From the sequence record MK672798.1: a DNA stretch of 59,463 nucleotides; one strand, 5' to 3'. Of the stretch, positions 1 through 59,463 are shown piece by piece. The notes beneath the pieces are model-generated. The model saw only the letters and a program-made list of their open reading frames with translations. It was not told where the DNA came from and did not search any database. Each line of letters starts with the position of its first letter. Position 1 is the stretch's first letter. The DNA comes from Escherichia phage Skure. The position numbers and the translations under genes are program-made.

Positions 1-2
1 GT

Positions 3-92
3 AAACTGAGGGTTAAGGAAATCATACGCTATGAAGCTGAAAATGTTTCGCTTGATTTTGTAGGATCAAGCAATTATATTCAGCCTAAATAG
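3..92 (+). CDS. 3' end of an ORF entering from the window edge; possibly the tail of the o-spanin ORF that leaves the window at 59463 if the record is a permuted or circularised genome
   Basis: Frame open from position 3 to TAG at 90-92; joining 59463 to 1 keeps the o-spanin reading frame. Confidence 0.2.
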   Translation, partial: KLRVKEIIRYEAENVSLDFVGSSNYIQPK

Positions 93-112
93 CAATAAGA
101 AAGGGGGCTTCC

Positions 113-670
113 ATGAACGGGGCAAGTCAAGAGCAATATGATCGTGACTGGACGAATTACATCCAGTATGCAAATAGCTTGTCCGCTGAAGAGATGGCAA
201 TACGTGACAAAGTTGTTGCTGAGTACATGTTCGACTACAATTGGACTAACGCTTGCATGAGATGCGGGTTCAATGCTATGTTTGCACAGGAGCTTGGCCA
301 ACGCTTTGCCACGGACTGTTATGTTCGATGGAAGCTCAAGGAGATTGAAAGATCCCGTGTTCAACGTACTTCTGAGCAAGCTAACATTGAAGCAGACCTT
401 GAGCGTCAGCATATCATTGAAGCATTAAAACGTGAAGCTCATTATACAGGACCGGGATCTTCTCAAGCTGCTAGAGTCGCCGCATTGGGCAAGCTTGCAC
501 AAATTTATGATTTGGATGCTCCCAAGAAGGCTAAGATTGATGTTACTAACAGAGGCGGCGTAATGATAGTCCCTGCTGTAGCAAATATTGACGAATGGGA
601 AAAAACTGCATCCGAGTCTCAACAACGACTAGTTAAAGAGACTGAAGATGGAGCTAAACCGACAACCTGA
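113..670 (+). CDS. terminase small subunit (putative)
   Basis: 185 aa ORF immediately upstream of and overlapping the large terminase gene; assigned by position. Confidence 0.45.
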   Translation: MNGASQEQYDRDWTNYIQYANSLSAEEMAIRDKVVAEYMFDYNWTNACMRCGFNAMFAQELGQRFATDCYVRWKLKEIERSRVQRTSEQANIEADLERQHIIEALKREAHYTGPGSSQAARVAALGKLAQIYDLDAPKKAKIDVTNRGGVMIVPAVANIDEWEKTASESQQRLVKETEDGAKPTT

Positions 671-2207
671 TAACATGCCGCGAGTCGTCTGGAAACCACA
701 TCCAGGTTCACAGACACTCGCTCTATCCTGCCCCGCTGATATTATCCTATACCACGGAACTCGCGGTCCTGGAAAAACGGACTGCCAGCTTATGCGTTTC
801 CGTAAGAACGTTGGCGTAGGGTACGGTAAATTTTGGAAGGGTATTATATTCGACCGTGAATATAAAAACCTTGATGACCTTGTAACTAAATCCCAGCGTT
901 GGTTTCCTGAATTTAAAGACGGGGCTAAATTCCTTAGCTCTAAGTCTGATTATAAATGGGTTTGGCCTACAGGTGAAGAGCTACTGTTCCGCGTTGCTTG
1001 TAAAGAAAAGGATTACTGGTCTTATCACGGTCACGAATACCCATTTATCGGATGGAACGAATTAACAAAATATCCGGACGGGCGCTTGTTTGAAGCTATG
1101 ATGTCCTGTAACCGTTCATCTTTCTTACCAGAAGATAACCCAATTATTAATCCAGATGGTACGGTCACATATTTACCGGATATCCCTCTTGAAGTGTTTG
1201 CTACCAGTAACCCGTTCGGTGCGGGGCATAACTGGGTTAAGAAACGCTTCATTGACGCTGCACCGATGGGTAAAATACTCAGGAAGACTACGCGAGTGTT
1301 TAACCCGAGGACGCAGAAAGACGAAGATGTGGTTACGACGCAATGCCATATCTTTGGTTCGTACCGTGAAAACAAAAACCTAAGTCCAAAATATATTGCA
1401 GAACTTATGTCTATCACAGACCCGAACAAGCGTGCTGCATGGTTGGGCGGGAGCTGGGATATTACATCCGGTGGTATGTTCGATGATCTGTGGCGTAGCA
1501 CTGTTCACAAAGTACGTCCATTTCCGATTCCAGCGAGTTGGAAGATTACACGTTCTTTCGACTGGGGTTCTTCAAAACCGTTCTCTGTCGGTTGGTGGGC
1601 TATTAGTGATGGTTCGGATGTTGTGCATGAAGATGGCACTACATTCTCCACGGTCCGCGGTGACCTGTTTAGGATTAACGAATGGTATGGGACCAACGGT
1701 AAAACAAACGAAGGTCTACATTTGCTGGACTCAGAAATTGCAAGCGGTATACTGGAGCGGGAATTGGCCTGGGGTATACACGATCGTGTAGTTCCTGGTC
1801 CTGCGGATAACTCCATTTGGGATCTGGAGAACAATAACTCCACCGCTGCAACAATGGCGAAGAAAATTCGTCTTAACGGGAAGTTATACGACGGTATACA
1901 TTGGAAGCGCAGTGATAAGTCTGCTGGGTCACGTAAACGGGGCTGGCAGAAAATGCGTGAGTTCCTTAAAGCTGCACTGCGGCAAGATGCGAACGGTAAA
2001 CCTTTGCCCGGTCCGCGCGAGAATCCAGCAATGTACATTTTTGATAACTGCAACTATTTCTTTGAGCTGGTTCCAAGTCTGCCTCGCGATGAAGTGGATC
2101 AGGACGACGTTGATACGGAATGTGAAGACCATATGGGTGATGAAGTTCGTTATATGGTTCTGGATCAAGCTGTTTATACAGGTGTTGGCAAAACTATCGG
2201 TATTTAA
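648..2207 (+). CDS. terminase large subunit
   Basis: 519 aa; Walker A-like HGTRGPGKTD near N-terminus; first gene of morphogenesis operon; AAGAG RBS-like sequence upstream. Confidence 0.8.
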   Translation: MELNRQPDNMPRVVWKPHPGSQTLALSCPADIILYHGTRGPGKTDCQLMRFRKNVGVGYGKFWKGIIFDREYKNLDDLVTKSQRWFPEFKDGAKFLSSKSDYKWVWPTGEELLFRVACKEKDYWSYHGHEYPFIGWNELTKYPDGRLFEAMMSCNRSSFLPEDNPIINPDGTVTYLPDIPLEVFATSNPFGAGHNWVKKRFIDAAPMGKILRKTTRVFNPRTQKDEDVVTTQCHIFGSYRENKNLSPKYIAELMSITDPNKRAAWLGGSWDITSGGMFDDLWRSTVHKVRPFPIPASWKITRSFDWGSSKPFSVGWWAISDGSDVVHEDGTTFSTVRGDLFRINEWYGTNGKTNEGLHLLDSEIASGILERELAWGIHDRVVPGPADNSIWDLENNNSTAATMAKKIRLNGKLYDGIHWKRSDKSAGSRKRGWQKMREFLKAALRQDANGKPLPGPRENPAMYIFDNCNYFFELVPSLPRDEVDQDDVDTECEDHMGDEVRYMVLDQAVYTGVGKTIGI

Positions 2208-2218
2208 CTGGAGGGTAT

Positions 2219-3715
2219 ATGGGTATTGATGCAACTCACCCGCTATATGACAAGTGGAAGGACGCATGGGTTAAGTGCAACGACTGCTATGAGGGTGAAG
2301 ATAAAATTAAGGAAGAAGGTGTTAAATATCTACCACCTTTAGCTTCCATGATTATTGATGGGATGAATAATCCTAATGATTTGGGCTTTCAACGTTGGCT
2401 CGCTTATCGTCTGCGTGCCAACTTCCCTGACGATTATTCAAGTGCGGTTACAAACAATTTAGGTCTGCTGCACCAGAAGCCCCCTACAATCCAGCTTCCA
2501 CCTGAAATGGAATACATGCGGGAGCTGTGTACTGCGGACGGTGAAGACATTATTGCTCTGCTACGTCGCATCAATGAAATGCAGTTAAAAAATGGGCGTT
2601 TGGGGCTGCTGCTGGACTTGCCTAAAGGTGAGGATGTAAATAACAGACCTTATATTAGTGTTTATGATGCTTTATCCATTATCAACTGGGATGATGGTAA
2701 AGATGAATTGGGTAATATCAACTTGAACATGGTTGTTCTGGATGAAAGCGGCCCTGTACGTGTCAATCAGTTTGACTGGAAAGAAGAGAAGCGTTATCGC
2801 GTTCTACAATTAGGTCCAATGGACACAGATGAAGTTGCAGGTGGGGCGGTCTACTCCCAACATCTGTTTATTAACAATACCAATTATGATGAAGGGCAAA
2901 TGATTGCTCCTTATTATAAAGGTAATACGCTGGATGAAATTCCTTTCCAGTTTGTCAATACAACAGATATTACCCCAGCACCGGAAGCGCCGCCATTGTT
3001 GGGTCTTGCTAACATTTGTCTAAGCATGTACCGAAGTGACGCGGATTACCGCCAATGCTTGCATATGCAGGGTCAGGATACTTTAGTTGTTGTTGGTGGT
3101 TCCATGGAAAATGGAGATAAAGCCCCTCAGCGTATTGGTCCTGGTGCAGTCATTAACGTTTCTCAGGGAGGTGACGCTAAATATGTAGGTGTTAGCGGTG
3201 ACGGTTTGTCCGAGCAACGTCTCGCACTGGCAGCGGATAAGCAGGAAGCCCAAATTAAAGCCGGGCAAATGGTAAACAATACCAAGAGTACGCAGGAATC
3301 AGGCGAAGCTATGAAAACGCGTATTGCTGCGCGTACAGCTAGTTTGATTCGAATTGCGTATACTGGTGCGGCTGGTTTGGAGAACTTGCTGAAGGTTTGC
3401 GCTAAGTGGATGGGTGCTGATCCCGAGAAAGTTGTGGTCAAGCCTAATCTTGAATTTACCAAGAGCATGTTTAACGGTCAGGACTTTGTTCAAATTATTA
3501 CTGCACGCAACCTTAAGGCTCCGATTAGCTTGCAGTCTATTCATGGCTGGCTTGTTGATCAGGGCTTAACCACACTAAGCTTTGAAGAAGAAATGGCAAT
3601 TCTTGAAGAAGAGCTTAAGAAGTGGCCTCTGCCCGATGATGCTAAAGCTGATTTAAACGCAGAGCAGCAAGTAAGCAAAGATCCTAAGGAAGACGACGCT
3701 TCCGATAAAGAATAG
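2219..3715 (+). CDS. portal protein
   Basis: 498 aa ORF directly after terminase; GGAGGG RBS; acidic C-terminus. Confidence 0.7.
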   Translation: MGIDATHPLYDKWKDAWVKCNDCYEGEDKIKEEGVKYLPPLASMIIDGMNNPNDLGFQRWLAYRLRANFPDDYSSAVTNNLGLLHQKPPTIQLPPEMEYMRELCTADGEDIIALLRRINEMQLKNGRLGLLLDLPKGEDVNNRPYISVYDALSIINWDDGKDELGNINLNMVVLDESGPVRVNQFDWKEEKRYRVLQLGPMDTDEVAGGAVYSQHLFINNTNYDEGQMIAPYYKGNTLDEIPFQFVNTTDITPAPEAPPLLGLANICLSMYRSDADYRQCLHMQGQDTLVVVGGSMENGDKAPQRIGPGAVINVSQGGDAKYVGVSGDGLSEQRLALAADKQEAQIKAGQMVNNTKSTQESGEAMKTRIAARTASLIRIAYTGAAGLENLLKVCAKWMGADPEKVVVKPNLEFTKSMFNGQDFVQIITARNLKAPISLQSIHGWLVDQGLTTLSFEEEMAILEEELKKWPLPDDAKADLNAEQQVSKDPKEDDASDKE

Positions 3716-3810
3716 TTGCAACTTCCAAGTTGATTGGTTTATATTAACGAACACGGGGCTGGGACGGCTCAGCTCCAAAAACGTCACACGGGTGACAACG
3801 GAGATAAGAA

Positions 3811-4683
3811 ATGAAAAAGAGTTCTGTAGCTATTAGTGTTGGTATGGCTTTAATTAATCCACGCGCTCGCGGTGAAGGTGATGTGGAACTGGAATACGAA
3901 TATGCATCTGCGGAAGAGATCCCGGCAGAGTTTGCAACTCTTTACGCAGAGCAGGGCGGTAAATACGTTCTTGCAAAAGTTAAAGGTGTAGCCCCTGCTG
4001 ATAGCGTTCGTCGTCTGGAAAGTGCATTGGCAAAAGAACGTAACGACCATCGTCAGGTGAAGCAACAGATTAGCGCACTTGGGCGTCCGGTTGAAGAAGT
4101 CCTTGCGGACCTTGATCGTATCCCACAACTGGAAGCTGCCGCTAACGGTAAAGGTACTCCGGAAGACATCGAAAAGATGGTTAAAGCTCGTCTTGCTCCG
4201 CTCGAGCGTCAATTGCAAACTGTAGCAGCTGAACGCGATTCCGTTAAGCAGGAAATTGAAGGCTACCGCACTCGCGAAACTAAAGCGAAAATTAAAGACG
4301 CAGTTATTGCCGCTGCATCCGGTGCTAAGCTGCGTCCGTCTGCTATCGAAGATGCGGTGACTTATGCACAGTTGCAAATGACCGTCGACGAGAACGGCAA
4401 TGTGGTTACGAAAGATGGGGCGGGTGTAACTCCATACCTAACCCCAGCGGATTGGCTTAACGAGATCCTCCCGAAACGTCCTCACTGGGTTGAGGGTTCT
4501 GCTGGTGGCGGTGCATCTGGTCCGGGCGCTGGCGGTCATCACGGTGAAGACCCATACAGTCACGACGGTTGGAACATCTCTAAGCAGATGAATCTCTGGA
4601 AAACTAATCAATCTTTAGCTAAACGCTTAGCTGAAAAGAATGGCGTAGATCCGCTGAAGCCTGTACGTCCTGCTAAGAAATAA
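3811..4683 (+). CDS. capsid scaffolding protein (putative)
   Basis: 290 aa, charged helical protein between portal and major capsid gene; GGAG RBS. Confidence 0.5.
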   Translation: MKKSSVAISVGMALINPRARGEGDVELEYEYASAEEIPAEFATLYAEQGGKYVLAKVKGVAPADSVRRLESALAKERNDHRQVKQQISALGRPVEEVLADLDRIPQLEAAANGKGTPEDIEKMVKARLAPLERQLQTVAAERDSVKQEIEGYRTRETKAKIKDAVIAAASGAKLRPSAIEDAVTYAQLQMTVDENGNVVTKDGAGVTPYLTPADWLNEILPKRPHWVEGSAGGGASGPGAGGHHGEDPYSHDGWNISKQMNLWKTNQSLAKRLAEKNGVDPLKPVRPAKK

Positions 4684-4697
4684 GTTGACATCCCGAC

Positions 4698-4730
4698 GTC
4701 CCTGATGTTAAGTTTCAACACATCAGGGAC
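4698..4730 (+). promoter_or_regulatory. perfect 11-bp stem-loop between scaffold and major capsid genes
   Basis: GTCCCTGATGT-(11 nt loop)-ACATCAGGGAC; no following U-tract; overlaps a TTGACA hexamer at 4685-4690. Confidence 0.45.
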
Positions 4731-4805
4731 ACGGGTTCCTAAACAGCCTTCCACGGGGAAAGGCTACCAACAGTAAACAAATCAATCCTTTTCCTGGAGA
4801 CAAGT

Positions 4806-5867
4806 ATGTCTAAATCTAAAATTATTCTGCCATTTGGTCGTGGCGAAACTGACCTGACTCGTTTGACGGATGTCATTGTCCCTGAGATCTTCACTGGTTA
4901 TGTGCAGACGCAGACCGCTGAACTTTCTGCCCTGATCCAATCCGGTGCGGTTGTGATGGACGAGCGTTTATCAGCTAACCTTGCTGGTGCAGGTCTGACT
5001 TTTAACGAGCCGTTCTATAACGACTTGAAAGATGAAGACGAAGATATCGCGGTTGATAAAGGTAATCCGTCAAAACCGTCTAATATCACTACTGGATCTG
5101 AAGTTCAGGTTCGTATGAGTCGTTCAAAATCCTGGGGTTCTGCGGATCTGGTATCAGCTTTGATTGGTAACGACCCAATGACCGCTATCGGTAACCGCGT
5201 GTCTGCGTGGTGGGTCCGCCGTCTGCAAGCTGCATACATCGCAACCTGGAAAGGTGTATTTGCTAATGCGAAGAAATCTCATAACGACGATTTGACTTTC
5301 GACATCTCTGGTTCTTCTTTTGTAAATAACCAGACCAACTTTACCGCGTCTAACTTCATCAACGCAACTGCAACGATGGGTGATGCTGCCCGCGGTCTGA
5401 CTATGATTATGGTACACTCTACCGTTCGTAACCGTATGCGTCAGTTGAACCTGATCGACTTCATTCCAGATGCTCGCGGCGAAACTCAGTTTGAGTATTA
5501 TCAGGGTCTGCGTATTATTGAAGACGACTCCATGCCACACGATCCGTCTACTGGTGTGTTTGAAAGCTGGCTGTTCGGCCCGGGCGCAACTGCAATGGGT
5601 GCTGGGTCACCGAAAGTTCCGACCGCTGTGGTGCGTGACGAAGCTGCTAACCAAGGCGCTGGTGAAGAAGTTCTTCACAACCGTGTTGAATGGATTCTGC
5701 ATCCAGTTGGGCATGCTTGGGCTGCTGCTCAAACTGCTAAAGGTGGTCCGTCTAACGCTGCTACCACTAACAACCTGGCCCATGAAGATTCCTGGCGTCG
5801 TGCGTTCCCTGAGCGCAAGCAGCTTAAAGTTGCACGCCTGATCACTCGTGAGTATCAGGGTTCCTAA
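4806..5867 (+). CDS. major capsid protein
   Basis: 353 aa; position after scaffold; followed by strong intrinsic terminator typical of a highly expressed capsid gene. Confidence 0.7.
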   Translation: MSKSKIILPFGRGETDLTRLTDVIVPEIFTGYVQTQTAELSALIQSGAVVMDERLSANLAGAGLTFNEPFYNDLKDEDEDIAVDKGNPSKPSNITTGSEVQVRMSRSKSWGSADLVSALIGNDPMTAIGNRVSAWWVRRLQAAYIATWKGVFANAKKSHNDDLTFDISGSSFVNNQTNFTASNFINATATMGDAARGLTMIMVHSTVRNRMRQLNLIDFIPDARGETQFEYYQGLRIIEDDSMPHDPSTGVFESWLFGPGATAMGAGSPKVPTAVVRDEAANQGAGEEVLHNRVEWILHPVGHAWAAAQTAKGGPSNAATTNNLAHEDSWRRAFPERKQLKVARLITREYQGS

Positions 5868-5898
5868 GGCTTCACTCAACGCTGCGCTGTAGTATTTT

Positions 5899-5925
5899 GG
5901 GGACATCTTATGTCCCCTCTTTTTT
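5899..5925 (+). terminator. rho-independent terminator after major capsid gene
   Basis: GGGGACAT-ctt-ATGTCCCC followed by TCTTTTTT. Confidence 0.6.
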
Positions 5926-5937
5926 AGGAGAACAACC

Positions 5938-6261
5938 ATGCGTTATCAACGTTATGAACGACATGACTTGATGGAAAAATCGTTGCAGGTGGAGCCAATT
6001 TCGATTACTCTCGATCCTGCTACGATTGACACCACAACTTCAGAAGTAAAAACGGTTACTGTTAAAATAAACTTTGTCCCAGGCGGAACTACAAACAAAG
6101 CGTATAGCGCGTCAGTTGACGGTTCCTCTGCTACAATTAAAGACAACGGGGACGGTACAATTACTGTGACCACAACCGAAAGCAGCGGTACTTCAAACTT
6201 GACAGTAACGTCCAAGGCAAAGGATAGTGTTACTGGTACATGTGTTATTAATGTGACCTAA
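5938..6261 (+). CDS. Ig-like (Big_2-type) domain protein, possible head decoration protein
   Basis: 107 aa, Thr/Ser/Val-rich beta-strand pattern resembling bacterial Ig-like group 2 domains; AGGAG RBS. Confidence 0.45.
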   Translation: MRYQRYERHDLMEKSLQVEPISITLDPATIDTTTSEVKTVTVKINFVPGGTTNKAYSASVDGSSATIKDNGDGTITVTTTESSGTSNLTVTSKAKDSVTGTCVINVT

Positions 6262-6277
6262 AAATAAGGATTAAACA

Positions 6278-6931
6278 ATGAAGACATTAATTGAAGCATT
6301 GTTAGAACTTGATCCGGAAAACCCGAATCATTGGACCAGCGATGGCTTACCTAAAGTAGACGCTCTGCGTTTCGCTACCGCTAACCCGTCTTTAACCCGC
6401 GACGATATTACGACTGCTGCTCCTCTATTTACCCGCGACAACCGCGTGCTGGAAGAGCCCGAGCCTGTGGAACCCGTTAAATCTGCTGATCCAGTTTTAC
6501 ATGAAGCAGTTAAACAGGAGAAAGCTCATGAAGAACAAAAGAAAGTCGCGGTTGCAACGATGCAAATCGAAGTTAAGATTAGCGAAGCACTGCGTGCTCT
6601 TCTGGAGCCGGAAAAAATCGGTGACGCTACCAGCTTAACCGATGAAGAACTGAAAGCGAAGCGCGAAAAGCTTAGCAATGTGGTTAAAGAGATTGCCCAC
6701 ACTAAGCACGCGTTGGAGCTTGCTATCGCAGACGTTCAAGCGGATCTGGATAAGATTATCGTTGAGCAGGAGCGTCGTCGTCCTAAGTCCGGTCTTACTG
6801 CAACTCAGATGTATCTTGAAGCGCAGAAAAAACGTAAACCGGAAGACATGCTTTCTGACCATCGCTTCCAGAACCCTATTGACGATCCTGTCGCCCGTAT
6901 GGTTGCACGTAATATGATGCGTCGAGGTTAA
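6278..6931 (+). CDS. hypothetical head-associated protein
   Basis: 217 aa ORF with RBS, in head module. Confidence 0.4.
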   Translation: MKTLIEALLELDPENPNHWTSDGLPKVDALRFATANPSLTRDDITTAAPLFTRDNRVLEEPEPVEPVKSADPVLHEAVKQEKAHEEQKKVAVATMQIEVKISEALRALLEPEKIGDATSLTDEELKAKREKLSNVVKEIAHTKHALELAIADVQADLDKIIVEQERRRPKSGLTATQMYLEAQKKRKPEDMLSDHRFQNPIDDPVARMVARNMMRRG

Positions 6932-6984
6932 CCATGGAAATGAGCCATAGACAATATGTGTTGTGGCTCCTCCGACGTAATAGA

Positions 6985-7015
6985 AAACGGCGTCAAGAAG
7001 ACGCCGTTTCTGTTC
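6985..7015 (+). terminator. candidate intrinsic terminator / attenuator
   Basis: AAACGGCGTC-aagaa-GACGCCGTTT then CTGTTCC; weak U-tract. Confidence 0.35.
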
Positions 7016-7069
7016 CTGAAGAAGAGCTCCCGTCACTTATCCCTACAACCATCGCAATGAGGAAGAAAG

Positions 7070-7576
7070 ATGGAGATTCCACTGATAGTTGAAGATGGTA
7101 CTGGTGTACCGGACGCCAACAGTTATGTCACCATTGAACAAGTCCGCATGTATGCCGCAATGCGAGGTATTGTACTTCCAAGTGAAGACGAAGATCTAAA
7201 GACAAAGATCTTTGACGCTATGGATTTTGTGGAAGGGTACAGCCAACGCTTTAAAGGTTATAAAATTGACCCACAGCAACCGCTAAATTGGCCACGCTAC
7301 GGGGTGTTTGTGGATGGGTTCGAGCTACCCCAAAGCCCCTTACCAAAGGCGCTTATAAACGCTGTTTGCCAGCTTACAGCGGACTCAGCTACTGGCGGTC
7401 CTCTTAATGGGAAAACTACCGCATATGCGGTCAAAAGAACTAAAGTAGAAGGTCTTGAGATTGAATATGCAACTGGTAGCACAGCACAGTCAGGTCCAGC
7501 AAAAACATACGATAAAGCTATGACGTTTTTATCACCTTTGCTGGGTTATCAAATGGGTAACAGATTAATACGGTGA
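7070..7576 (+). CDS. head-tail connector/adaptor protein (putative)
   Basis: 168 aa; position between head and tail genes; AGGAAG RBS. Confidence 0.4.
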   Translation: MEIPLIVEDGTGVPDANSYVTIEQVRMYAAMRGIVLPSEDEDLKTKIFDAMDFVEGYSQRFKGYKIDPQQPLNWPRYGVFVDGFELPQSPLPKALINAVCQLTADSATGGPLNGKTTAYAVKRTKVEGLEIEYATGSTAQSGPAKTYDKAMTFLSPLLGYQMGNRLIR

Positions 7577-7579
7577 TTT

Positions 7580-7960
7580 ATGAGCTTTCCTTATGAGCAG
7601 TTAGTTGAAGCTGCAAAGCAAATGATCAACGACGCTGGCGTGAACTGTACCCTTGTGGTCATGGAAGAAGGAGAAGGTCAAGATGAGTGGGACGATCCTA
7701 GTGTTGAAAAACGCTACCCATTTATCGGAGCTTTCCTTTCTCCGAAGGAAAAAATGATCGGTGGGAGTCTTGTTGCTGCTGGCGAATTGAAAGTCTTAAC
7801 CTATCCAATGACTCCACCATTGACACGAGATAAAGCAATGACTGCACGCATTGAGCGTATGTCTCCTGATGGTGAGTTGGAAGTATGGACAATTAACGAG
7901 TTCGTTGATACAAGACCTGCTAATGTTTCTGTTCTTTATACTTTCAAGGTGACGCGATAA
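7580..7960 (+). CDS. head-tail joining protein (putative)
   Basis: 126 aa, tightly packed in connector gene series. Confidence 0.35.
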   Translation: MSFPYEQLVEAAKQMINDAGVNCTLVVMEEGEGQDEWDDPSVEKRYPFIGAFLSPKEKMIGGSLVAAGELKVLTYPMTPPLTRDKAMTARIERMSPDGELEVWTINEFVDTRPANVSVLYTFKVTR

Positions 7961-8367
7961 TGGGATTCGGGGCGGATATACGGCGTGCAAGTCAAAAGGT
8001 GCTTGTCCAGACTGGGGAGCAAGCCAAAAAGGTTGTTGTCAAGTTCACGGAGAATGTAATTCAGGATACTCCTGTTAAGACCGGACGTACAAAAGGCGGT
8101 TGGCGTTCATCCATTGGTGCACCATATGCGACGGAAACAATCCGCCTCGATCCTACTGGGGAGTTAGCTAAAGCGGAAGCTAGAGTTGTTGTTCGACAGC
8201 TACCAGATAATAAAGACTGGACTTTCTATTTTAGCAATTTGACTCCCTATGCTTCAAAACTTGAATATCTTGGATGGTCGCAGCAAGCGCCAAATGGTAT
8301 GGTGCGTATTAACGTTGCGAAGCTGCCAATGCTAATACGTCAAGCTATTGTAGAAGGAAAACTATAA
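7960..8367 (+). CDS. neck protein, HK97 gp10-like (putative)
   Basis: 135 aa; start overlaps previous stop; position in neck series. Confidence 0.4.
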   Translation: MGFGADIRRASQKVLVQTGEQAKKVVVKFTENVIQDTPVKTGRTKGGWRSSIGAPYATETIRLDPTGELAKAEARVVVRQLPDNKDWTFYFSNLTPYASKLEYLGWSQQAPNGMVRINVAKLPMLIRQAIVEGKL

Positions 8368-8816
8368 TGCTGGGATATGATTATATTAATGACGCATTTA
8401 ATACAATGCTTCGTGAAGCGGTTGGACCGGATATTGGTATAGCTTGGAAGAATAAGAAGTTTACACCTAAAGCCAACCAGATGTGGTTAAAGGCAATCAA
8501 TGCGCCCGCTTCAACTTATGCAGCAACTCTAGGTGATAACGGTCTGAATGAAATTCCAGGCTTCTATCAAATTACAGTATATAGTCCTTTAAACACCGGA
8601 ACGTCTAAACAGAATCAAATCTTGGATTCTATTCGGAAAAAGTTTAAACTGGGCTTGCGTATCCCGTGCCCGGATGACCACACGTTACGGATTGTCAGTT
8701 TAGACTTTTCGCAGGGTGGACAAACTTCGCTGAACGATTTTACCAAAGGCGGGGTTGAAGATAACTGGGACGTTAACTTTATCACAATCTATTGGTCGGC
8801 TCGTGAGCCGAGGTAA
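8367..8816 (+). CDS. tail terminator/tail completion protein (putative)
   Basis: 149 aa immediately upstream of major tail protein gene. Confidence 0.35.
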   Translation: MLGYDYINDAFNTMLREAVGPDIGIAWKNKKFTPKANQMWLKAINAPASTYAATLGDNGLNEIPGFYQITVYSPLNTGTSKQNQILDSIRKKFKLGLRIPCPDDHTLRIVSLDFSQGGQTSLNDFTKGGVEDNWDVNFITIYWSAREPR

Positions 8817-8830
8817 GAGAGGAACTAAAT

Positions 8831-9754
8831 ATGGCTACAGGTTCACGTTATTCGTGCTACTACGTCAAAGAAGATGTAAGTAACACTACACCAGCTAGTG
8901 CGAAGTTTACTCCGTTCCGTGTAACCAGCTCCGGTCTGGACATCAATATTGCAACGCTGGAATCTGAAGAACTGCGTGACGATGCTGAAACCGCATACTT
9001 CCGTCTTGGTGCTCGTAGCGTTGAAGGTACTGTAACTGGCGAAATGTCCTTTGGTACATTTGACGATCTTATTGCTGCTGCACTTCGTGGGGAATGGCAA
9101 GACAACGTCCTCAAAGGCGGCATTGTGCGTCAATCGTTTACTTTTGTAGACTATAACGCAGATCTCCCGTCAGGTAAATATACAATTTATCGCGGATGTG
9201 AAGTTAACAGCATGACGTTCTCACTTTCTGCGGAAAACATGACCACAGTGGAGTTTGGCATTGTTGGACGTTCAATGGAAATTGCGGAATCTCTTCCGTC
9301 CGGTGCAACCATTAAAGACCGCACCACTACATCTCCTATGGACGGCTTCTCCGGTCGCTTGCTGGAAAACGGCGAAGAAATCAGTGTTATTACGGAAATC
9401 GGTCTTACTGTTGAAAACGATATTGCCCCGCGCTTTGTTGTTGGATCGAAGTTCTCCATCGAACCGTCTGCTGGTCGTCGTGCTGTAACTGGTACGGCTA
9501 ACGTATACTTCCTGGATAACAAGCTGCGTATGAAGTATCTGGATGAAGTGGAAACTTCAATCAAGTTTGACCTGATTGATCCTACTAATCCGGAACAAAA
9601 ATACACAGTTGAAATTCCGCGCGTGAAGTTTACCGAAGCTCCGCGTCCTATTGACGGCGAAGGTGATATCATGCTTAATATGGGCTATCGCGGTTTGCTG
9701 GACCCAACAACCGCAAGTTCCATCAAAATTACCCGCGTTTTAGCGGCAGCATAA
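8831..9754 (+). CDS. major tail protein
   Basis: 307 aa, upstream of the chaperone pair and tape measure gene. Confidence 0.6.
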   Translation: MATGSRYSCYYVKEDVSNTTPASAKFTPFRVTSSGLDINIATLESEELRDDAETAYFRLGARSVEGTVTGEMSFGTFDDLIAAALRGEWQDNVLKGGIVRQSFTFVDYNADLPSGKYTIYRGCEVNSMTFSLSAENMTTVEFGIVGRSMEIAESLPSGATIKDRTTTSPMDGFSGRLLENGEEISVITEIGLTVENDIAPRFVVGSKFSIEPSAGRRAVTGTANVYFLDNKLRMKYLDEVETSIKFDLIDPTNPEQKYTVEIPRVKFTEAPRPIDGEGDIMLNMGYRGLLDPTTASSIKITRVLAAA

Positions 9755-55342: not shown

Positions 55343-55409
55343 TTGAACAACATATGCAACACTGGAAAGATTTTATTGAAGAAATGCTGAAACCTTTGGA
55401 GAAGAAATA

Positions 55410-55802
55410 ATGTTATTAGTCGTCACCGGAGGGCGTAATTTTAAGCATGTGGAATATATTTATGCTCAACTGGATAAGTTGCATATGCAAAGAAGGATAA
55501 CCACACTTCGCCACGGTGACGCTGACGGTGTTGACCGCATTTGCGCACAGTGGGCAGAGCGCAACGGTATTAAGACAGAAGCGTTCCCTGCCCCGTGGGA
55601 CAATCTTTCCTTACCAAATACCAAGATACGGTATAACGCCAAGGGTGCTTATAATGCACAAGCTGGCGCTTACCGCAATCAATTGATGCTGGATACTGAT
55701 CCTAAACCAGATCACGCTATTGTATTTCCTGGCGGAGCTGGTACTATGGATATGTACAGACGGATTAAAGCATCCGGTATCCCTTACACATTAGCGGAGT
55801 AA
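55410..55802 (+). CDS. LOG/SLOG-like Rossmann-fold protein (putative nucleotide-binding or N-glycosidase-like)
   Basis: 130 aa; N-terminal LLVVTGGRNF and C-terminal VFPGGAGTMDM resemble the LOG family PGGxGTxxE motif. Confidence 0.35.
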   Translation: MLLVVTGGRNFKHVEYIYAQLDKLHMQRRITTLRHGDADGVDRICAQWAERNGIKTEAFPAPWDNLSLPNTKIRYNAKGAYNAQAGAYRNQLMLDTDPKPDHAIVFPGGAGTMDMYRRIKASGIPYTLAE

Positions 55803-55805
55803 ATA

Positions 55806-56276
55806 ATGGCTGACGTTAAAACTATTGTTGATGCAATGGACGAATCCAAAGACGACCAACTGAAGAAGTCGTTTGAAGTAAAACAGGTTACAGAGACTCA
55901 GTTGGTCTGTAATTTTGCGCGTTATTGTGGACTGGGGCGCGGGAAAGACTGGAACGGGCTTATTGTTATGCCCACATCACAAATCCTCGTTTACGTTCGC
56001 AATATTCTTGAGGATTTATTATATCTTCAGATTGATATCGGTGATGTAGAAATCAATATGACTGCGAGCTCTACCATTGTGGTTAAATGGCAGTCGGGCG
56101 AGACACTGCGTTTGGAAGCGTGCCATTGTGCTAAGAGCCTACACCACCTGCGCGGTTGTCATTACCAGTTCGTTGGGTTTGTACATCCGCAAGGGTTAAG
56201 CGAGCGTACGGCGCTGGTAGCGCGTTTGCTGCTGCGTCCTTATAATAACGAGCCGGAAGTTATATACGAGGCATAA
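55806..56276 (+). CDS. hypothetical protein
   Basis: 156 aa ORF. Confidence 0.45.
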   Translation: MADVKTIVDAMDESKDDQLKKSFEVKQVTETQLVCNFARYCGLGRGKDWNGLIVMPTSQILVYVRNILEDLLYLQIDIGDVEINMTASSTIVVKWQSGETLRLEACHCAKSLHHLRGCHYQFVGFVHPQGLSERTALVARLLLRPYNNEPEVIYEA

Positions 56277-56278
56277 AC

Positions 56279-56635
56279 ATGAGAAGCGGGCGATGTCGTT
56301 TTGTATTTTTTATTGGGCGTTACGCGATAAAAATACCTCGTCTAAATAGTTACGAAGGGTTCCTACAAGGCTTATTAAGTAATATTACAGAGCGGAAATG
56401 GCGTAATTATCCTGATAAACACTTGTGTCCTGTAGTGTATGCTAATTGTATTGGTTTAATTGTGATAATGCTAAGGGCGCAGGAAGTAACAGATTTTGAA
56501 AAGTTTAAAAAGGATTTGGATGTCATATGCAACGATGAAAAAGGGCTTGGCGAAGAGTTTTATCGCTGGGATGGTACAGCAAAAAACTTTGGATACCTTA
56601 ACGGTAAGTTAGTTAAAGTAGATTACGGTGATTAA
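56279..56635 (+). CDS. hypothetical protein
   Basis: 118 aa ORF. Confidence 0.4.
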   Translation: MRSGRCRFVFFIGRYAIKIPRLNSYEGFLQGLLSNITERKWRNYPDKHLCPVVYANCIGLIVIMLRAQEVTDFEKFKKDLDVICNDEKGLGEEFYRWDGTAKNFGYLNGKLVKVDYGD

Positions 56636-57064
56636 ATGACAAAAATACGATTTGTTAAACAGCCAACTTTAAATACATGCGTTTCTGCGTGTTTGGCAAT
56701 GATCCTTAATAAACCTGTTGAGAAGGTCATTGAGGAATTTCATAGTCGTTATTATAACAACTGGGAAATCACTATCAGCGAATATTTGACTAAAAACGGC
56801 GTCAAGCATCATTGTTCAGAAGGTGGTGGGCGTGAAGCTTTGCATATGGGAGGTCTGTTCCTGTGCACGGTGCCAAGTCTTAATATTCCGGGCGCATTGC
56901 ACCAGATTGTGATTGATATGACAGATCACAAGTTTATTGTGCATGATCCAATTAAAGGATGGGAAGGTAAAAAGTTCTATGTTGGTCCGGATCAAGATCC
57001 TGAAGAGCCTGGAGCTTTTATCATTCATACTTGGGTCAAAGACGTTGAAATCCTGCCTTATTAA
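56636..57064 (+). CDS. papain-fold cysteine peptidase-like protein (C39-like)
   Basis: 142 aa; QPTLNTCVSACLAMIL resembles the Q...C(G)xAxLxMI active-site region of C39 peptidases; later H in IVHDP. Confidence 0.4.
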   Translation: MTKIRFVKQPTLNTCVSACLAMILNKPVEKVIEEFHSRYYNNWEITISEYLTKNGVKHHCSEGGGREALHMGGLFLCTVPSLNIPGALHQIVIDMTDHKFIVHDPIKGWEGKKFYVGPDQDPEEPGAFIIHTWVKDVEILPY

Positions 57065-57126
57065 TTTTCTTGCTATCACATAACCATTCATTGTATTGTG
57101 TACCCATCGAATAAGAGGGGTACACA

Positions 57127-57312
57127 ATGACCAAACTATACGCCGGATTGTTTTTATTTGCGACGTTGATGTTCGCTGGGCTTTATACCTATACAGTAGT
57201 CGAACAACCTTCCACGGTTATCCGAATCTTTGCAAGTACAGGGCTTTGCATCTGTCTTATTCTATTTGTTTTATGCATTGTTATTATCCAAGACCAAAGG
57301 AAAGTTAAATGA
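57127..57312 (+). CDS. small membrane protein (two TM helices)
   Basis: 61 aa; AGAGGGG RBS. Confidence 0.35.
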   Translation: MTKLYAGLFLFATLMFAGLYTYTVVEQPSTVIRIFASTGLCICLILFVLCIVIIQDQRKVK

Positions 57313-57773
57313 CCACAATTGCGTTTGATGGAAAAGTATTAGCTGCGGACCGTGGCGTTATGCGCGGGGAAGCTGTGACTGCTTATAAGAAAGTTCATAG
57401 CGTGAATGGACATCGTGGACGGTTTTTACTGGGCTTGTGCGGTTTGACAGCATTTACCGATCAGGTGTTGCGTTATTTTAATAGCGCGGAACCTGTTAAG
57501 TTCCCTGATATTAAACTTTACAGCAAAGATGATGATTACGGGCAAACTTGCGGTCTTGCTATCACTCCGGAAGGTACTTGCCATTTTATTTATAATGATG
57601 GTACTTTGAGCGAGCCCATGCTGGATGGATGGGGATCTGAGGGTAGCGGTTGTGTGTTTGCCGCTGGTGCATTAGCCGCTGGTGCAAGCGCAAGCGAAGC
57701 TATTGAGCTGGCAATTAAACACACCACATGCGCATTCCTGGGAGTTGATACAATATCATTTGAGGGTTTTTAA
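57309..57773 (+). CDS. Ntn-hydrolase, HslV/proteasome beta subunit-like protein
   Basis: 154 aa; begins MTTIAFDGK (Thr right after Met as in HslV MTTIVSV); GSEGSG and AGALAAGASASEAIELAIK resemble HslV GSGG and C-terminal helix. Confidence 0.4.
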   Translation: MTTIAFDGKVLAADRGVMRGEAVTAYKKVHSVNGHRGRFLLGLCGLTAFTDQVLRYFNSAEPVKFPDIKLYSKDDDYGQTCGLAITPEGTCHFIYNDGTLSEPMLDGWGSEGSGCVFAAGALAAGASASEAIELAIKHTTCAFLGVDTISFEGF

Positions 57774-58034
57774 ATGACTACATTCAGTCACCTGATCCCA
57801 CCTGCTTATCATAGTAAGGTAGTTGACCACGGGACGCATGTTGTAATTGGTGGCGAAATCTTTATCACAGATAACGAGGAAATCGCCATTGCAATTATTG
57901 ACAGCACTCAGCATGACTTTATGGTTATCCTGCAACACGAACCAGATAACTTCACTTTTTACTCCAGCTACGGGGTCGATAAAGGTGGAAAAAGCCTTGT
58001 TAGCTGGTATATTAGCGAGTGGTTTGACGGGTAA
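57774..58034 (+). CDS. hypothetical protein
   Basis: 86 aa ORF. Confidence 0.4.
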   Translation: MTTFSHLIPPAYHSKVVDHGTHVVIGGEIFITDNEEIAIAIIDSTQHDFMVILQHEPDNFTFYSSYGVDKGGKSLVSWYISEWFDG

Positions 58035-58116
58035 TCTCCTTAGATCAATTCTCCTTGCGCCGTATCAAGTTTCTCTGTTACCCTTGAGTGGTTCATGTCA
58101 AGCGGAGGAACTCGAT

Positions 58117-58554
58117 ATGGCACTTCAACCTCGTGGTATTCGTAATAACAATCCAGGCAATATTCGCTGGGGTGATAATTGGCAGGGCTTAGTTCCTGCT
58201 GATAAGCGAACCGATAAATCTTTTGCTCAATTCACGCAACCGATTTACGGCATTCGTGCGCTAGCGAAAATCCTGACAAACTACACCAAACGTGAAGGCT
58301 TGCCCAATGTAGGTAAGAAAAACATCGACACTGTACGTGAAATTATCGCTCGCTGGGCACCGCCTAACGAAAACGATACGGAAGCGTATATTCGCTCTGT
58401 TGCTAAAGCAATTGGTGTTCAACCTAACGATCCAATTAATGTCTTCGACAAGGCAATTATGTCAGGATTGGTGAAAGCAATCATTCGTCATGAAAATGGC
58501 ATGATGCCCTATACCGACGACGTAATTAACCGCGCTATTGCAATGGTACTTTAA
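58117..58554 (+). CDS. putative endolysin
   Basis: Start at ATG 58117 (GGAGG RBS) rather than 57847; 146 aa soluble protein immediately upstream of holin and spanins; catalytic family not identified. Confidence 0.45.
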   Translation: MALQPRGIRNNNPGNIRWGDNWQGLVPADKRTDKSFAQFTQPIYGIRALAKILTNYTKREGLPNVGKKNIDTVREIIARWAPPNENDTEAYIRSVAKAIGVQPNDPINVFDKAIMSGLVKAIIRHENGMMPYTDDVINRAIAMVL

Positions 58555-58590
58555 CTGACGGGGCGTTAGCCCCTTTTGTTTGGAGGGAAC

Positions 58591-58935
58591 ATGTTCAATT
58601 CACCCAACGAACATTGGGCAGTTCTAGCGGGGTTTGCGTTTATCTCCCTCATTGGGGGAGCTCTCGGTTATGTCATGCGTACAATAGACGCTGGTAAGAA
58701 AGTACGGGCAAGCATTGCGTTTCTTGAAGGCTTATCCGCCGCTTTCTTTGGCGTTATAATGTATGCGATCTACAGGGAGTTTAACATCAGCCTTTGGTTC
58801 GCTTTTGGCCTTGCTGGCCTATTTGCTTGGGCAGGTTCACGTGCTACGCTAAAAGCCCTAACGTCGCTTATAGCTTCACGGACAGGGATCAAACTCGATT
58901 CAGGGGACTGCAAACATGAAAACGATTCTAAATAA
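58591..58935 (+). CDS. holin (three TM helices, class I-like)
   Basis: Start at ATG 58591 with GGAGGG RBS; three hydrophobic helices and charged C-terminus. Confidence 0.5.
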   Translation: MFNSPNEHWAVLAGFAFISLIGGALGYVMRTIDAGKKVRASIAFLEGLSAAFFGVIMYAIYREFNISLWFAFGLAGLFAWAGSRATLKALTSLIASRTGIKLDSGDCKHENDSK

Positions 58936-59392
58936 CTTCTTCAGTTTTATAAAAACTAAACCGCGTCTGTTTATCGAGTATTTGATGATCGGCGCGGTTG
59001 TGTTTTTATGCGGGGTGGCTGCATACTTGTGGTCACAGAACGAGCTTAGCAAAACTAATTTAAATCATGCTGAGCAAAGACTAACCGTTGTAGAACGGGA
59101 CAATGCAAAGCTGGGCGAAGCTGTTGTATTTCTTGCATCCCAACGGGAGAAGGATACTGAATCCTATCGAAAATTGGCTTCAGCAATTGAAAGTGAGCAA
59201 CATAACCACAGGTTGCTTCAGGACAAATTAAAAGCACTGGAGAAAAGCAATGCCGACGTCAAAGCTTATCTTAATGAGCGTGTTCCTGATGATTTGCGCA
59301 GGCTGCTCGACGGAGATACAACCTCCACCACCGCCGCAGATAGTGAAGATAAAACTTCCGGCCCATCTGTTGGTAGAATGTCGGGAAGTTGA
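58916..59392 (+). CDS. i-spanin (Rz-like)
   Basis: 158 aa; N-terminal TM helix then coiled-coil periplasmic domain; overlaps holin end and contains the o-spanin start. Confidence 0.6.
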   Translation: MKTILNNFFSFIKTKPRLFIEYLMIGAVVFLCGVAAYLWSQNELSKTNLNHAEQRLTVVERDNAKLGEAVVFLASQREKDTESYRKLASAIESEQHNHRLLQDKLKALEKSNADVKAYLNERVPDDLRRLLDGDTTSTTAADSEDKTSGPSVGRMSGS

Positions 59393-59463
59393 TAAATATC
59401 CTTTGGTTTATACAAGGGACATTATCCAACGTTTGCAGGATACAGAAACAGCTCTGACTGAAT
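59250..59463 (+). CDS. o-spanin (Rz1-like lipoprotein), partial, starts in +1 frame inside the i-spanin gene and runs off the window
   Basis: Hand translation MPTSKLILMSVFLMICAGCSTEIQPPPPPQIVKIK...; lipoprotein-like signal with Cys and a poly-Pro stretch typical of Rz1. Confidence 0.5.
   Translation, partial: MPTSKLILMSVFLMICAGCSTEIQPPPPPQIVKIKLPAHLLVECREVDKYPLVYTRDIIQRLQDTETALTE

What the first reader, a model, noticed from the sequence alone, without database searches (positions are those of the whole stretch)
57309..57773. HslV/proteasome-like Ntn-hydrolase encoded by the phage
The protein begins MTTIAFDGK, with Thr directly after the initiator Met as in HslV, where Thr1 is the nucleophile. 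It also has a GSEGSG segment and an Ala-rich C-terminal helix resembling HslV. A phage-borne proteasome-type peptidase two genes away from a papain-like peptidase is unusual.
Basis: partly seen in the sequence, partly recalled or inferred. Interest (0 to 1): 0.5.

Follow-up and report, generated by a model that had tools for sequence, protein, structure and literature searches.

The report
Phage mini-proteasome-like threonine peptidase (PPH)
The gene encodes a small proteasome/HslV-like enzyme with an intact threonine active site, but it belongs to a phage protein family that was described in 2021 and is already annotated, so only its unknown function and a conserved cysteine-peptidase neighbour remain of interest.

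The parts
57309..57773 (+). CDS of the 154-aa PPH-type proteasome-like Ntn hydrolase (stop codon included)
57297..57301 (+). Shine-Dalgarno-like AAGGA, 7 nt before the ATG; the ATG overlaps the stop of the upstream ORF (ATGA at 57309-57312)
   Evidence: Read directly from the sequence
57312..57314 (+). Codon of Thr2, the predicted N-terminal nucleophile (Thr1 once the initiator Met is removed)
   Evidence: T in 94% and S in 6% of 167 family members; 98% start directly with Met followed by Thr or Ser
57348..57350 (+). Codon of Asp14, equivalent to proteasome/HslV Asp17
   Evidence: 99% conserved; aligned to HslV D17 by hhalign
57390..57392 (+). Codon of Lys28, equivalent to Lys33
   Evidence: 100% conserved; aligned to HslV K33
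57441..57443 (+). Codon of Gly45, the oxyanion-hole glycine (proteasome Gly47, E. coli HslV Gly48)
   Evidence: 100% conserved; aligned to HslV G48
57447..57482 (+). Helix H1 (residues 47-58), the only helix on this face of the fold
   Evidence: DSSP on the AF2 model
57483..57545 (+). Non-helical loop (residues 59-79) that replaces helix H2 of HslV and the proteasome; contains the family-conserved Pro66
   Evidence: AF2 secondary structure; 11-14-residue deletion relative to HslV; P66 97% conserved; loss of H2 is the PPH/RPC hallmark (PMC8665760)
57633..57650 (+). GSEGSG (residues 109-114); Gly112-Ser113-Gly114 corresponds to HslV Gly123-Ser124-Gly125 (proteasome Ser129)
   Evidence: G112 100%, S113 86%, G114 100% conserved; hhalign
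57651..57719 (+). Ala-rich helices H3 (115-123) and H4 (128-137)
   Evidence: AF2 secondary structure; A118, A121, G125, A128, A131 and A135 are 95-99% conserved
56636..57064 (+). Neighbouring 142-aa C39-type (double-glycine-peptidase-like) papain-fold cysteine peptidase; syntenic partner of PPH in Queuovirinae
57127..57312 (+). 61-aa hydrophobic small protein between the two peptidase genes (Seuratvirus-specific, phrog_22841)
   Evidence: no counterpart in JenK1
57774..58034 (+). 86-aa ORF directly abutting the PPH stop codon (phrog_23528, function unknown)
58117..59392 (+). Lysis cassette downstream on the same strand: endolysin (58117-58554), holin (58576-58935), Rz-like spanin (58916-59392)
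   Evidence: Pfam/PHROG hits; 67% identity to the JenK1 endolysin; CAjan annotation

Best explanation
[quoted passage not shown] PPH is a minimal, roughly 150-residue version of the proteasome-beta/HslV fold. Shown here: the fold; the complete proteasome-type catalytic set (Thr2, Asp14, Lys28, oxyanion Gly45, Gly112-Ser113-Gly114); the absence of any propeptide; the absence of helix H2; strong purifying selection; and placement in the late, same-strand gene block just upstream of the lysis cassette and terminase. Inferred mechanism: host methionine aminopeptidase removes Met1, as it does for E. coli HslV, which also starts MTTI. This exposes Thr1, whose hydroxyl attacks a peptide or amide bond, with Lys28/Asp14 and the free alpha-amine acting as the proton relay and Gly45 stabilising the oxyanion. 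Because H2 and the HslU-tail pocket are missing and the phage has no unfoldase gene, the enzyme most likely works without HslU. It may work alone or as a self-assembled oligomer held by the retained H3/H4 helices, as BPH does. It would be made late in infection and cleave one or a few phage or host proteins that are still unidentified. In Queuovirinae it may act together with the conserved C39-type cysteine peptidase two genes upstream.
Against: No biochemical or genetic data exist for any PPH; none was found. Activity, oligomeric state and substrate are therefore all inferred. The Pfam Proteasome model scores below its gathering threshold (15.4 versus 22.4 bits). Skure has Thr at position 139 where 75% of the family has Asp, probably the Asp166 equivalent. 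Isolated proteasome and HslV subunits are inactive, so activity would depend on an assembly I could not model. HslU independence rests on a sequence alignment that has low confidence in the H2 region. Direct clustering with the published PPH reference (WP_042125023.1) could not be done.
Confidence: 0.75

Rival explanations
1. It is a phage-encoded HslV substitute. It would dock onto the host HslU ATPase and form a hybrid ATP-dependent protease that redirects host proteolysis.
For: HslV chains are the best sequence and fold matches. The N-terminus MTTIA resembles E. coli HslV MTTIV (translation of L086). The E. coli host has hslVU. Several depositors annotate relatives as 'ATP-dependent protease'.
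Confidence: 0.08
2. It is a virion-morphogenesis protease, acting in head maturation, scaffold removal or connector processing. It would fill the role of the prohead protease that these SPP1-like head modules lack.
For: In distant phages the gene lies inside packaging, head or connector modules: PPH-TerS-TerL, TerL-PPH-portal, portal-x-PPH, Ad1-PPH-Hc1. Seuratvirus, Nonagvirus and Jerseyvirus have no annotated prohead protease. Many PPH-bearing phages share the SPP1-type capsid protein. There is a precedent: Rrp (SP_1145), a proteasome-like Ntn hydrolase on a mobile element, performs site-specific removal of the bL27 N-terminal extension, a motif also present on staphylococcal phage capsid and scaffold proteins (bioRxiv 10.64898/2026.08.10.744006).
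Against: The position within late modules is variable, as expected for a mobile accessory gene. In Skure it is about 7 kb upstream of the head genes, with the lysis cassette and terminase in between. From my own knowledge, SPP1-type capsids assemble without a protease. In the portal-x-PPH loci a protease-like gene sits next to PPH (phrog_458, E=8e-6). PPH also occurs in jumbo and phiCbK-like phages; that these encode their own prohead proteases is my own knowledge, not checked here. Virion proteomics of the related phage Vid5 lists no peptidase, although I did not verify that Vid5 has a PPH.
Confidence: 0.12
3. It is not a protease. It could be a connectase-like protein ligase or transpeptidase, an amidohydrolase acting on a non-protein substrate, or a catalytically dead structural or regulatory protein.
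Against: All proteasome-type catalytic residues are conserved at 86-100% under strong purifying selection, which argues against a dead enzyme. Similarity to the proteolytic members HslV, BPH and beta subunits is much higher than to connectase or the other Ntn amidases. There is no connectase-type helical insertion between S3 and S4.
Confidence: 0.05

Closest known systems
[quoted passage not shown]
   Same: About 140-155 aa. Compact proteasome-like core without helix H2, without a propeptide and without a C-terminal extension. Thr1/Asp17/Lys33/Gly47 equivalents present. Found in tailed phages of Proteobacteria and their prophages. Nearest characterised relatives are HslV and BPH.
   Different: Nothing structural. 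Skure carries Thr139 where most members have Asp. Direct clustering with the published reference sequence could not be done. No PPH has been characterised experimentally, so 'same function' cannot be stated.
HslV (ClpQ), peptidase of the bacterial HslVU protease
   Different: About 22-25% identity and some 20 residues shorter. H2 is replaced by a loop. The HslU C-tail pocket residues are not conserved. There is no adjacent hslU. No NCBIfam HslV model matches.
BPH (beta-proteobacteria proteasome homologue; PDB 5OVS/5OVU)
   Different: BPH is about 185-200 aa with H2 and a long acidic pore loop, and it forms heptameric double rings. The oligomeric state of PPH is unknown.
Rrp (SP_1145) of S. pneumoniae TIGR4, a proteasome-like Ntn hydrolase on a mobile element (bioRxiv 10.64898/2026.08.10.744006)
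   Same: Proteasome-like fold carried by a mobile or phage-related element. It shows that such proteins can be site-specific processing proteases rather than bulk degraders.
   Different: Gram-positive host, closer to Anbu and beta subunits, with extra domains. It is a different subfamily. Its substrate, the bL27 N-terminal extension, does not exist in E. coli.
Peptidase family C39 (double-glycine leader peptidase domains of PCAT1 and ComA), for the neighbour at 56636-57064
   Different: It is a stand-alone 142-aa protein not fused to an ABC transporter. The Pfam C39 score is below threshold (13.7 versus 22 bits). Its substrate is unknown.

Membership tests
Proteasome-like (MEROPS T1-type) Ntn hydrolases | Alpha-beta-beta-alpha sandwich fold of proteasome beta/HslV subunits | tested here: met
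Proteasome-like (MEROPS T1-type) Ntn hydrolases | Thr (or Ser) nucleophile at the mature N-terminus | tested here: met
   Thr2 follows Met1 and no upstream in-frame start exists; T 94% and S 6% of 167 relatives. Actual Met removal cannot be tested here.
Proteasome-like (MEROPS T1-type) Ntn hydrolases | Asp17, Lys33, oxyanion Gly47 and the Ser129 (Gly-Ser-Gly) equivalents | tested here: met
   D14 99%, K28 100%, G45 100%, G112-S113-G114 100/86/100%; each aligned to its HslV counterpart
Proteasome-like (MEROPS T1-type) Ntn hydrolases | Score above the Pfam PF00227 gathering threshold | tested here: not met
   15.4 bits versus cutoff 22.4. The family profile and the fold do reach significance, so this reflects divergence and not exclusion from the superfamily.
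Proteasome-like (MEROPS T1-type) Ntn hydrolases | Thr1-dependent peptidase activity | not testable with these tools
   Needs purified protein, inhibitor labelling and a T2A mutant
HslV proper (partner of HslU) | Match to curated HslV models (orthology) | tested here: not met
   No NCBIfam family at E<=0.1; about 22-25% identity to HslV
HslV proper (partner of HslU) | H1/H2 helix pair and the inter-subunit pocket that receives the HslU C-terminus (F54, F57, A79, K80, Q114 in E. coli/H. influenzae HslV) | tested here: not met
   H2 is absent in the model. An 11-residue deletion covers HslV 66-76. F54, F57 and Q114 align to D51, L54 and E102.
HslV proper (partner of HslU) | An hslU gene encoded alongside | tested here: not met
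   No AAA+ unfoldase is annotated in the near-identical KS_A8 and CAjan genomes; the neighbours are unrelated
HslV proper (partner of HslU) | Dodecameric double hexamer | not testable with these tools
   No multimer prediction was available
PPH (Fuchs et al. 2021) | Compact size of about 140 residues, no propeptide, no C-terminal extension (which distinguishes it from RPC) | tested here: met
   154 aa; family median 149 aa; matches start at residue 1; the protein ends 4 residues after the last strand
PPH (Fuchs et al. 2021) | Lacks helix H2 but keeps H1, H3 and H4 | tested here: met
   Helices at 47-58, 115-123 and 128-137 only; residues 59-79 are non-helical; published criterion
PPH (Fuchs et al. 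2021) | Carried by tailed phages and prophages of Proteobacteria | tested here: met
   486 phage records, including Salmonella, Escherichia, Caulobacter, Klebsiella and Vibrio phages; 145 confirmed IMG/VR stretches, the best 80 kept as loci
PPH (Fuchs et al. 2021) | Clusters with the published PPH reference set (e.g. WP_042125023.1) | not tested
   The reference sequence could not be retrieved. The PHROG 1040 match at E=5.7e-32 is the nearest proxy.
Prohead (head-maturation) proteases, as a functional class | Gene located between portal and scaffold/capsid genes, with capsid or scaffold proteins being cleaved | tested here: not met
   In Skure the gene lies upstream of the lysis cassette, not in the head module. 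That position is met only in a minority of distant loci. Cleavage itself cannot be tested here.
Peptidase C39 (neighbour 56636-57064) | Papain fold with Gln-x5-Cys ... His ... Asp | tested here: met

The most novel reading that the evidence does not exclude
In Queuovirinae the PPH threonine peptidase and the C39-type cysteine peptidase could form a conserved two-protease late module that processes a specific phage or host protein just before lysis and packaging. More broadly, PPH could be a new, proteasome-fold class of phage morphogenesis or processing protease in phages that lack a conventional prohead protease. Rrp, which trims bL27, offers a parallel.
Probability: 0.15. Interest if true: 0.6.

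Novelty: already known. Interest (0 to 1): 0.27.

Why it matters
As a discovery it matters little. The gene is already labelled 'peptidase HslV family' in RefSeq records of sister phages, and the family was named and described in 2021. It matters somewhat as a pointer. PPH is the most compact proteasome relative known. It is very abundant in phage and metagenome data, with about 7,900 clusters at 50% identity and E<=1e-10. It is under strong purifying selection and sits consistently in late operons, yet no member has a known substrate, oligomeric state or phenotype. Skure, CAjan and the BASEL Seuratviruses infect E. coli K-12, so they are a convenient system in which to find out what a viral mini-proteasome does. 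The conserved C39 partner gives a concrete second gene to test alongside it.

Tried and rejected
1. A single-sequence phmmer search against PDB found nothing significant. Pfam Proteasome scored below threshold. Only profiles and the fold gave significance.
2. NCBIfam and PADLOC gave no hits for PPH or its neighbours, so there is no support for an HslV orthologue or a known defence or anti-defence system.
3. I first assumed the sister genus Nonagvirus lacks the gene, because the first tblastn found only 39 records. That would have argued against a core function. It was wrong: JenK1 gp80 is a diverged PPH in the syntenic position.
4. I tested whether the C39-like gene travels with PPH generally. 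It does not. It is present only in the Seuratvirus loci among the 80 viral loci searched, plus Nonagvirus JenK1.
5. The head-maturation-protease idea was examined and downgraded. The position is variable, the capsid is SPP1-type, and a protease-like gene co-occurs in some loci.
6. The promoter and terminator scan gave counts no higher than shuffled sequence, so I make no claim about a dedicated promoter.
7. My first ORF selection lost the PPH gene in 23 GC-rich loci. I redid it with seeding and a GC3 filter.
I reran it without that row.
9. Literature searches for experimental work on phage HslV-like or PPH proteins found none.
10. The published PPH reference sequence could not be obtained.

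Full report
**1. Observation.** Window 57309-57773 (+) is an uninterrupted 154-codon ORF that begins MTTIAFDGK. The ATG is the first start codon after the preceding in-frame stop, so no N-terminal propeptide can be encoded. It overlaps the stop of the upstream 61-aa ORF (ATGA) and is preceded by AAGGA at a 7-nt spacing. The next ORF starts immediately after the TAA. GSEGSG lies at residues 109-114 and the Ala-rich stretch at 115-137.

**2. Source.** The region is 91-98.6% identical to Seuratvirus coliphages such as KS_A8, CAjan and Seurat. The neighbouring protein is 100% identical to one from Escherichia phage Skure, on a contig of exactly 59,463 bp. The window is therefore that phage's whole genome. 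The same gene is already annotated 'peptidase HslV family' in the CAjan, Seurat and slur01 RefSeq records and the pharokka-style KS_ records, 'putative protease' in the CAjan GenBank record, and 'proteasome subunit alpha type-2' or 'ATP-dependent protease' elsewhere.

**3. Identity.**
- Single-sequence searches are weak. Pfam Proteasome scores 15.4 bits, below the 22.4-bit cutoff, and PDB phmmer finds nothing.
- PHROG 1040 'peptidase HslV family' matches at E=5.7e-32 over the full length.
- A profile of 21 homologues (A1) finds HslV chains first (E=2.8e-9), then archaeal and eukaryotic 20S beta subunits and BPH.
- hhalign against E. coli K-12 HslV gives 92% probability.
- The AlphaFold2 model is confident (pLDDT 94.7, pTM 0.89).
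- The fold is therefore the proteasome-like Ntn-hydrolase fold.

**4. Active site.** I examined 167 sequences: the query, the 150 best hits of the exhaustive search, and hits of the earlier protein search. The conserved positions are:
- Met1: 98%.
- Thr2: 94%, with Ser in the rest.
- Asp14: 99%.
- Lys28: 100%.
- Gly45: 100%.
- Gly112-Ser113-Gly114: 100/86/100%.
- Asp147: 87%.

hhalign places Asp14, Lys28, Gly45 and Gly112-Ser113-Gly114 on HslV D17, K33, G48 and G123-S124-G125. This is the Thr1/Asp17/Lys33/Gly47/Ser129 set of the proteasome family. dN/dS between Skure and the CSP1 orthologue is 0.033 at dS=0.51. One local departure exists: Skure has Thr139 where 75% of the family has Asp, probably the Asp166 equivalent. 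From established knowledge, E. coli methionine aminopeptidase removes Met before Thr, and E. coli HslV itself starts MTTI. Exposure of Thr1 is therefore expected, but it is inferred and not shown.

**5. Not HslV proper; it fits PPH.**
- The model has one helix (47-58) where HslV and the proteasome have the H1/H2 pair. Residues 59-79 are loop.
- Alignments show an 11-14-residue deletion relative to HslV at H2.
- The residues reported to accommodate the HslU C-termini are F54, F57, A79, K80 and Q114 (PMC6429459). They correspond to D51, L54, the loop region and E102.
- No NCBIfam HslV model matches.
- No unfoldase is annotated in the near-identical genomes.
[quoted passage not shown] It has about 140 residues, is found in Caudovirales and their hosts, has no propeptide, and is, together with RPC, the only family that lacks H2.
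- The Skure protein meets every diagnostic feature I could test. I could not obtain the reference sequence for direct clustering.

**6. Frequency.** The exhaustive profile search found 11,472 representatives at 50% clustering with E<=1e-3, and 7,918 with E<=1e-10. The top 150 are almost all 140-160 aa and match from residue 1. A tblastn with a central member hits 486 of 50,697 phage records. These include Jerseyvirus, Kagunavirus, Klebsiella, Vibrio, Caulobacter phiCbK-like and jumbo phages, and many are already labelled as HslV-family peptidases. BFVD holds an identical protein and 39 significant viral structural matches. The claim that a phage-borne proteasome-type peptidase is unusual is therefore not supported.

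**7. Genomic context.**
- In Skure the gene lies in a same-strand, tightly packed block that runs into the endolysin, holin and spanin genes. The terminase, portal, scaffold and SPP1-type capsid genes follow at the start of the genome.
- Nonagvirus JenK1 has a 36%-identical PPH (gp80, profile E=6.7e-31) in the same place.
- Jerseyvirus 'sidste' has PPH, then two holin genes, lysozyme, further small genes, TerS, TerL and portal.
- I analysed 80 IMG/VR loci (63 non-redundant) with my own ORF calling and clustering. The gene is co-oriented with late genes and falls into several layouts: PPH-TerS-TerL-portal, TerL-PPH-portal, portal-x-PPH, or Ad1-PPH-Hc1-Neck1-tail terminator. A few lie after DnaB or NinB.
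- The recognisable immediate neighbours are mainly terminase subunits, Ad1, Hc1 and portal.
- Late expression is therefore a consistent inference. The variable position looks like that of a mobile accessory gene and not a fixed morphogenetic component.

**8. The neighbouring peptidase.**
- ORF 56636-57064 (142 aa) has invariant Q9, C15 (Q-x5-C), H89 and D104.
- Its model is confident (pLDDT 91.4).
- JenK1 gp78 is 34% identical (E=2e-25) and again lies two genes upstream of PPH, while the intervening and flanking genes are unrelated.
- The pairing is absent from the other PPH loci.
- This conserved pairing within Queuovirinae is the one observation here that I did not find described.

**9. Mechanism and rivals.**
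- Best-supported reading (0.75 for identity plus general mechanism): a late-expressed, HslU-independent N-terminal-threonine peptidase of the PPH family, with unknown substrate and assembly state.
- HslU-dependent HslV substitute (0.08): contradicted by the missing H2 and pocket.
- Morphogenesis or maturation protease (0.12): favoured by the module context, the lack of annotated prohead proteases, and the Rrp precedent. Weakened by the variable position, the SPP1-type capsids, and the co-occurring protease-like genes.
- Non-protease or inactive protein (0.05): contradicted by the conserved proteasome-type catalytic set and its closeness to proteolytic members.
- I found no experimental study of any PPH.

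**10. Verdict.** Interest is modest. What remains open is the unknown biology of an abundant viral mini-proteasome homologue and its conserved C39 partner in Queuovirinae.

Noticed in passing
window 56636-57064 and 57309-57773; L085 8319-8759 (JenK1 gp78) and 9113-9607 (gp80): The C39-type cysteine peptidase and the PPH threonine peptidase stay two genes apart in both Seuratvirus and Nonagvirus at only about 35% identity, while the genes between and around them are replaced. This suggests a functional pair specific to Queuovirinae.
   Followed up: partly
window 56279-56635: A 118-aa ORF (phrog_4301, function unknown) lies between the homologues of CAjan gp83 and gp84 and is absent from CAjan and KS_A8. 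This explains the 91% query coverage. It contains a 'GRYAIKIP' segment reminiscent of a protein-kinase N-lobe, but Pfam gave no hit.
   Followed up: no
window 55410-55802: A 130-aa protein with a YspA/cpYpsA-related SLOG domain (PF10686, E=3.5e-18). Depositors annotate it variously as 'GTP-binding domain', 'DprA' or 'phosphoribosyl transferase'. It lies in the same late block upstream of the peptidases.
   Followed up: no
window 1-8800 (TerS 113-670, TerL 648-2207, portal 2219-3715, scaffold 3811-4683, capsid 4806-5867): The window is the complete genome of Escherichia phage Skure. Its major capsid protein is SPP1 gp13-like (35% identity), a type shared by 748 phage records, and no prohead protease is annotated in the head module of near-identical genomes.
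   Followed up: partly
L012, L023, L043, L046, L049, L051, L063-L066 (IMG/VR contigs), PPH at about 6001 in most: In one group of uncultivated siphophages the PPH gene is inserted exactly between head-tail adaptor Ad1 and head-closure protein Hc1. This is an unusual slot for an enzyme gene.
   Followed up: partly
L085 9113-9607 (JenK1 gp80): The Nonagvirus PPH has Gly-Ser-Ala where the family has the otherwise 100%-conserved Gly-Ser-Gly, and a 10-residue longer C-terminus. Thr2, Asp and Lys are kept.
   Followed up: no
window 58555-58573: A GC-rich hairpin followed by a T-run, terminator-like, lies directly after the endolysin stop and before the holin gene. Overall terminator-like counts in the region were not above the shuffled expectation.
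   Followed up: no
L083 28856-34382 (KS_A8, 98.6% identical over window 55400-59463); the corresponding minus-strand region of the window: A 7-deazaguanine (queuosine-type) DNA-modification gene cluster (queC/D/E-like, GTP cyclohydrolase, tRNA-guanine transglycosylase-like DpdA), typical of Queuovirinae.
   Followed up: no
protein family level: The PPH-like family has about 7,900 representatives at 50% clustering with E<=1e-10 in the 1.8-billion-protein library. The 2021 description reported 324 nr90 sequences.
   Followed up: partly
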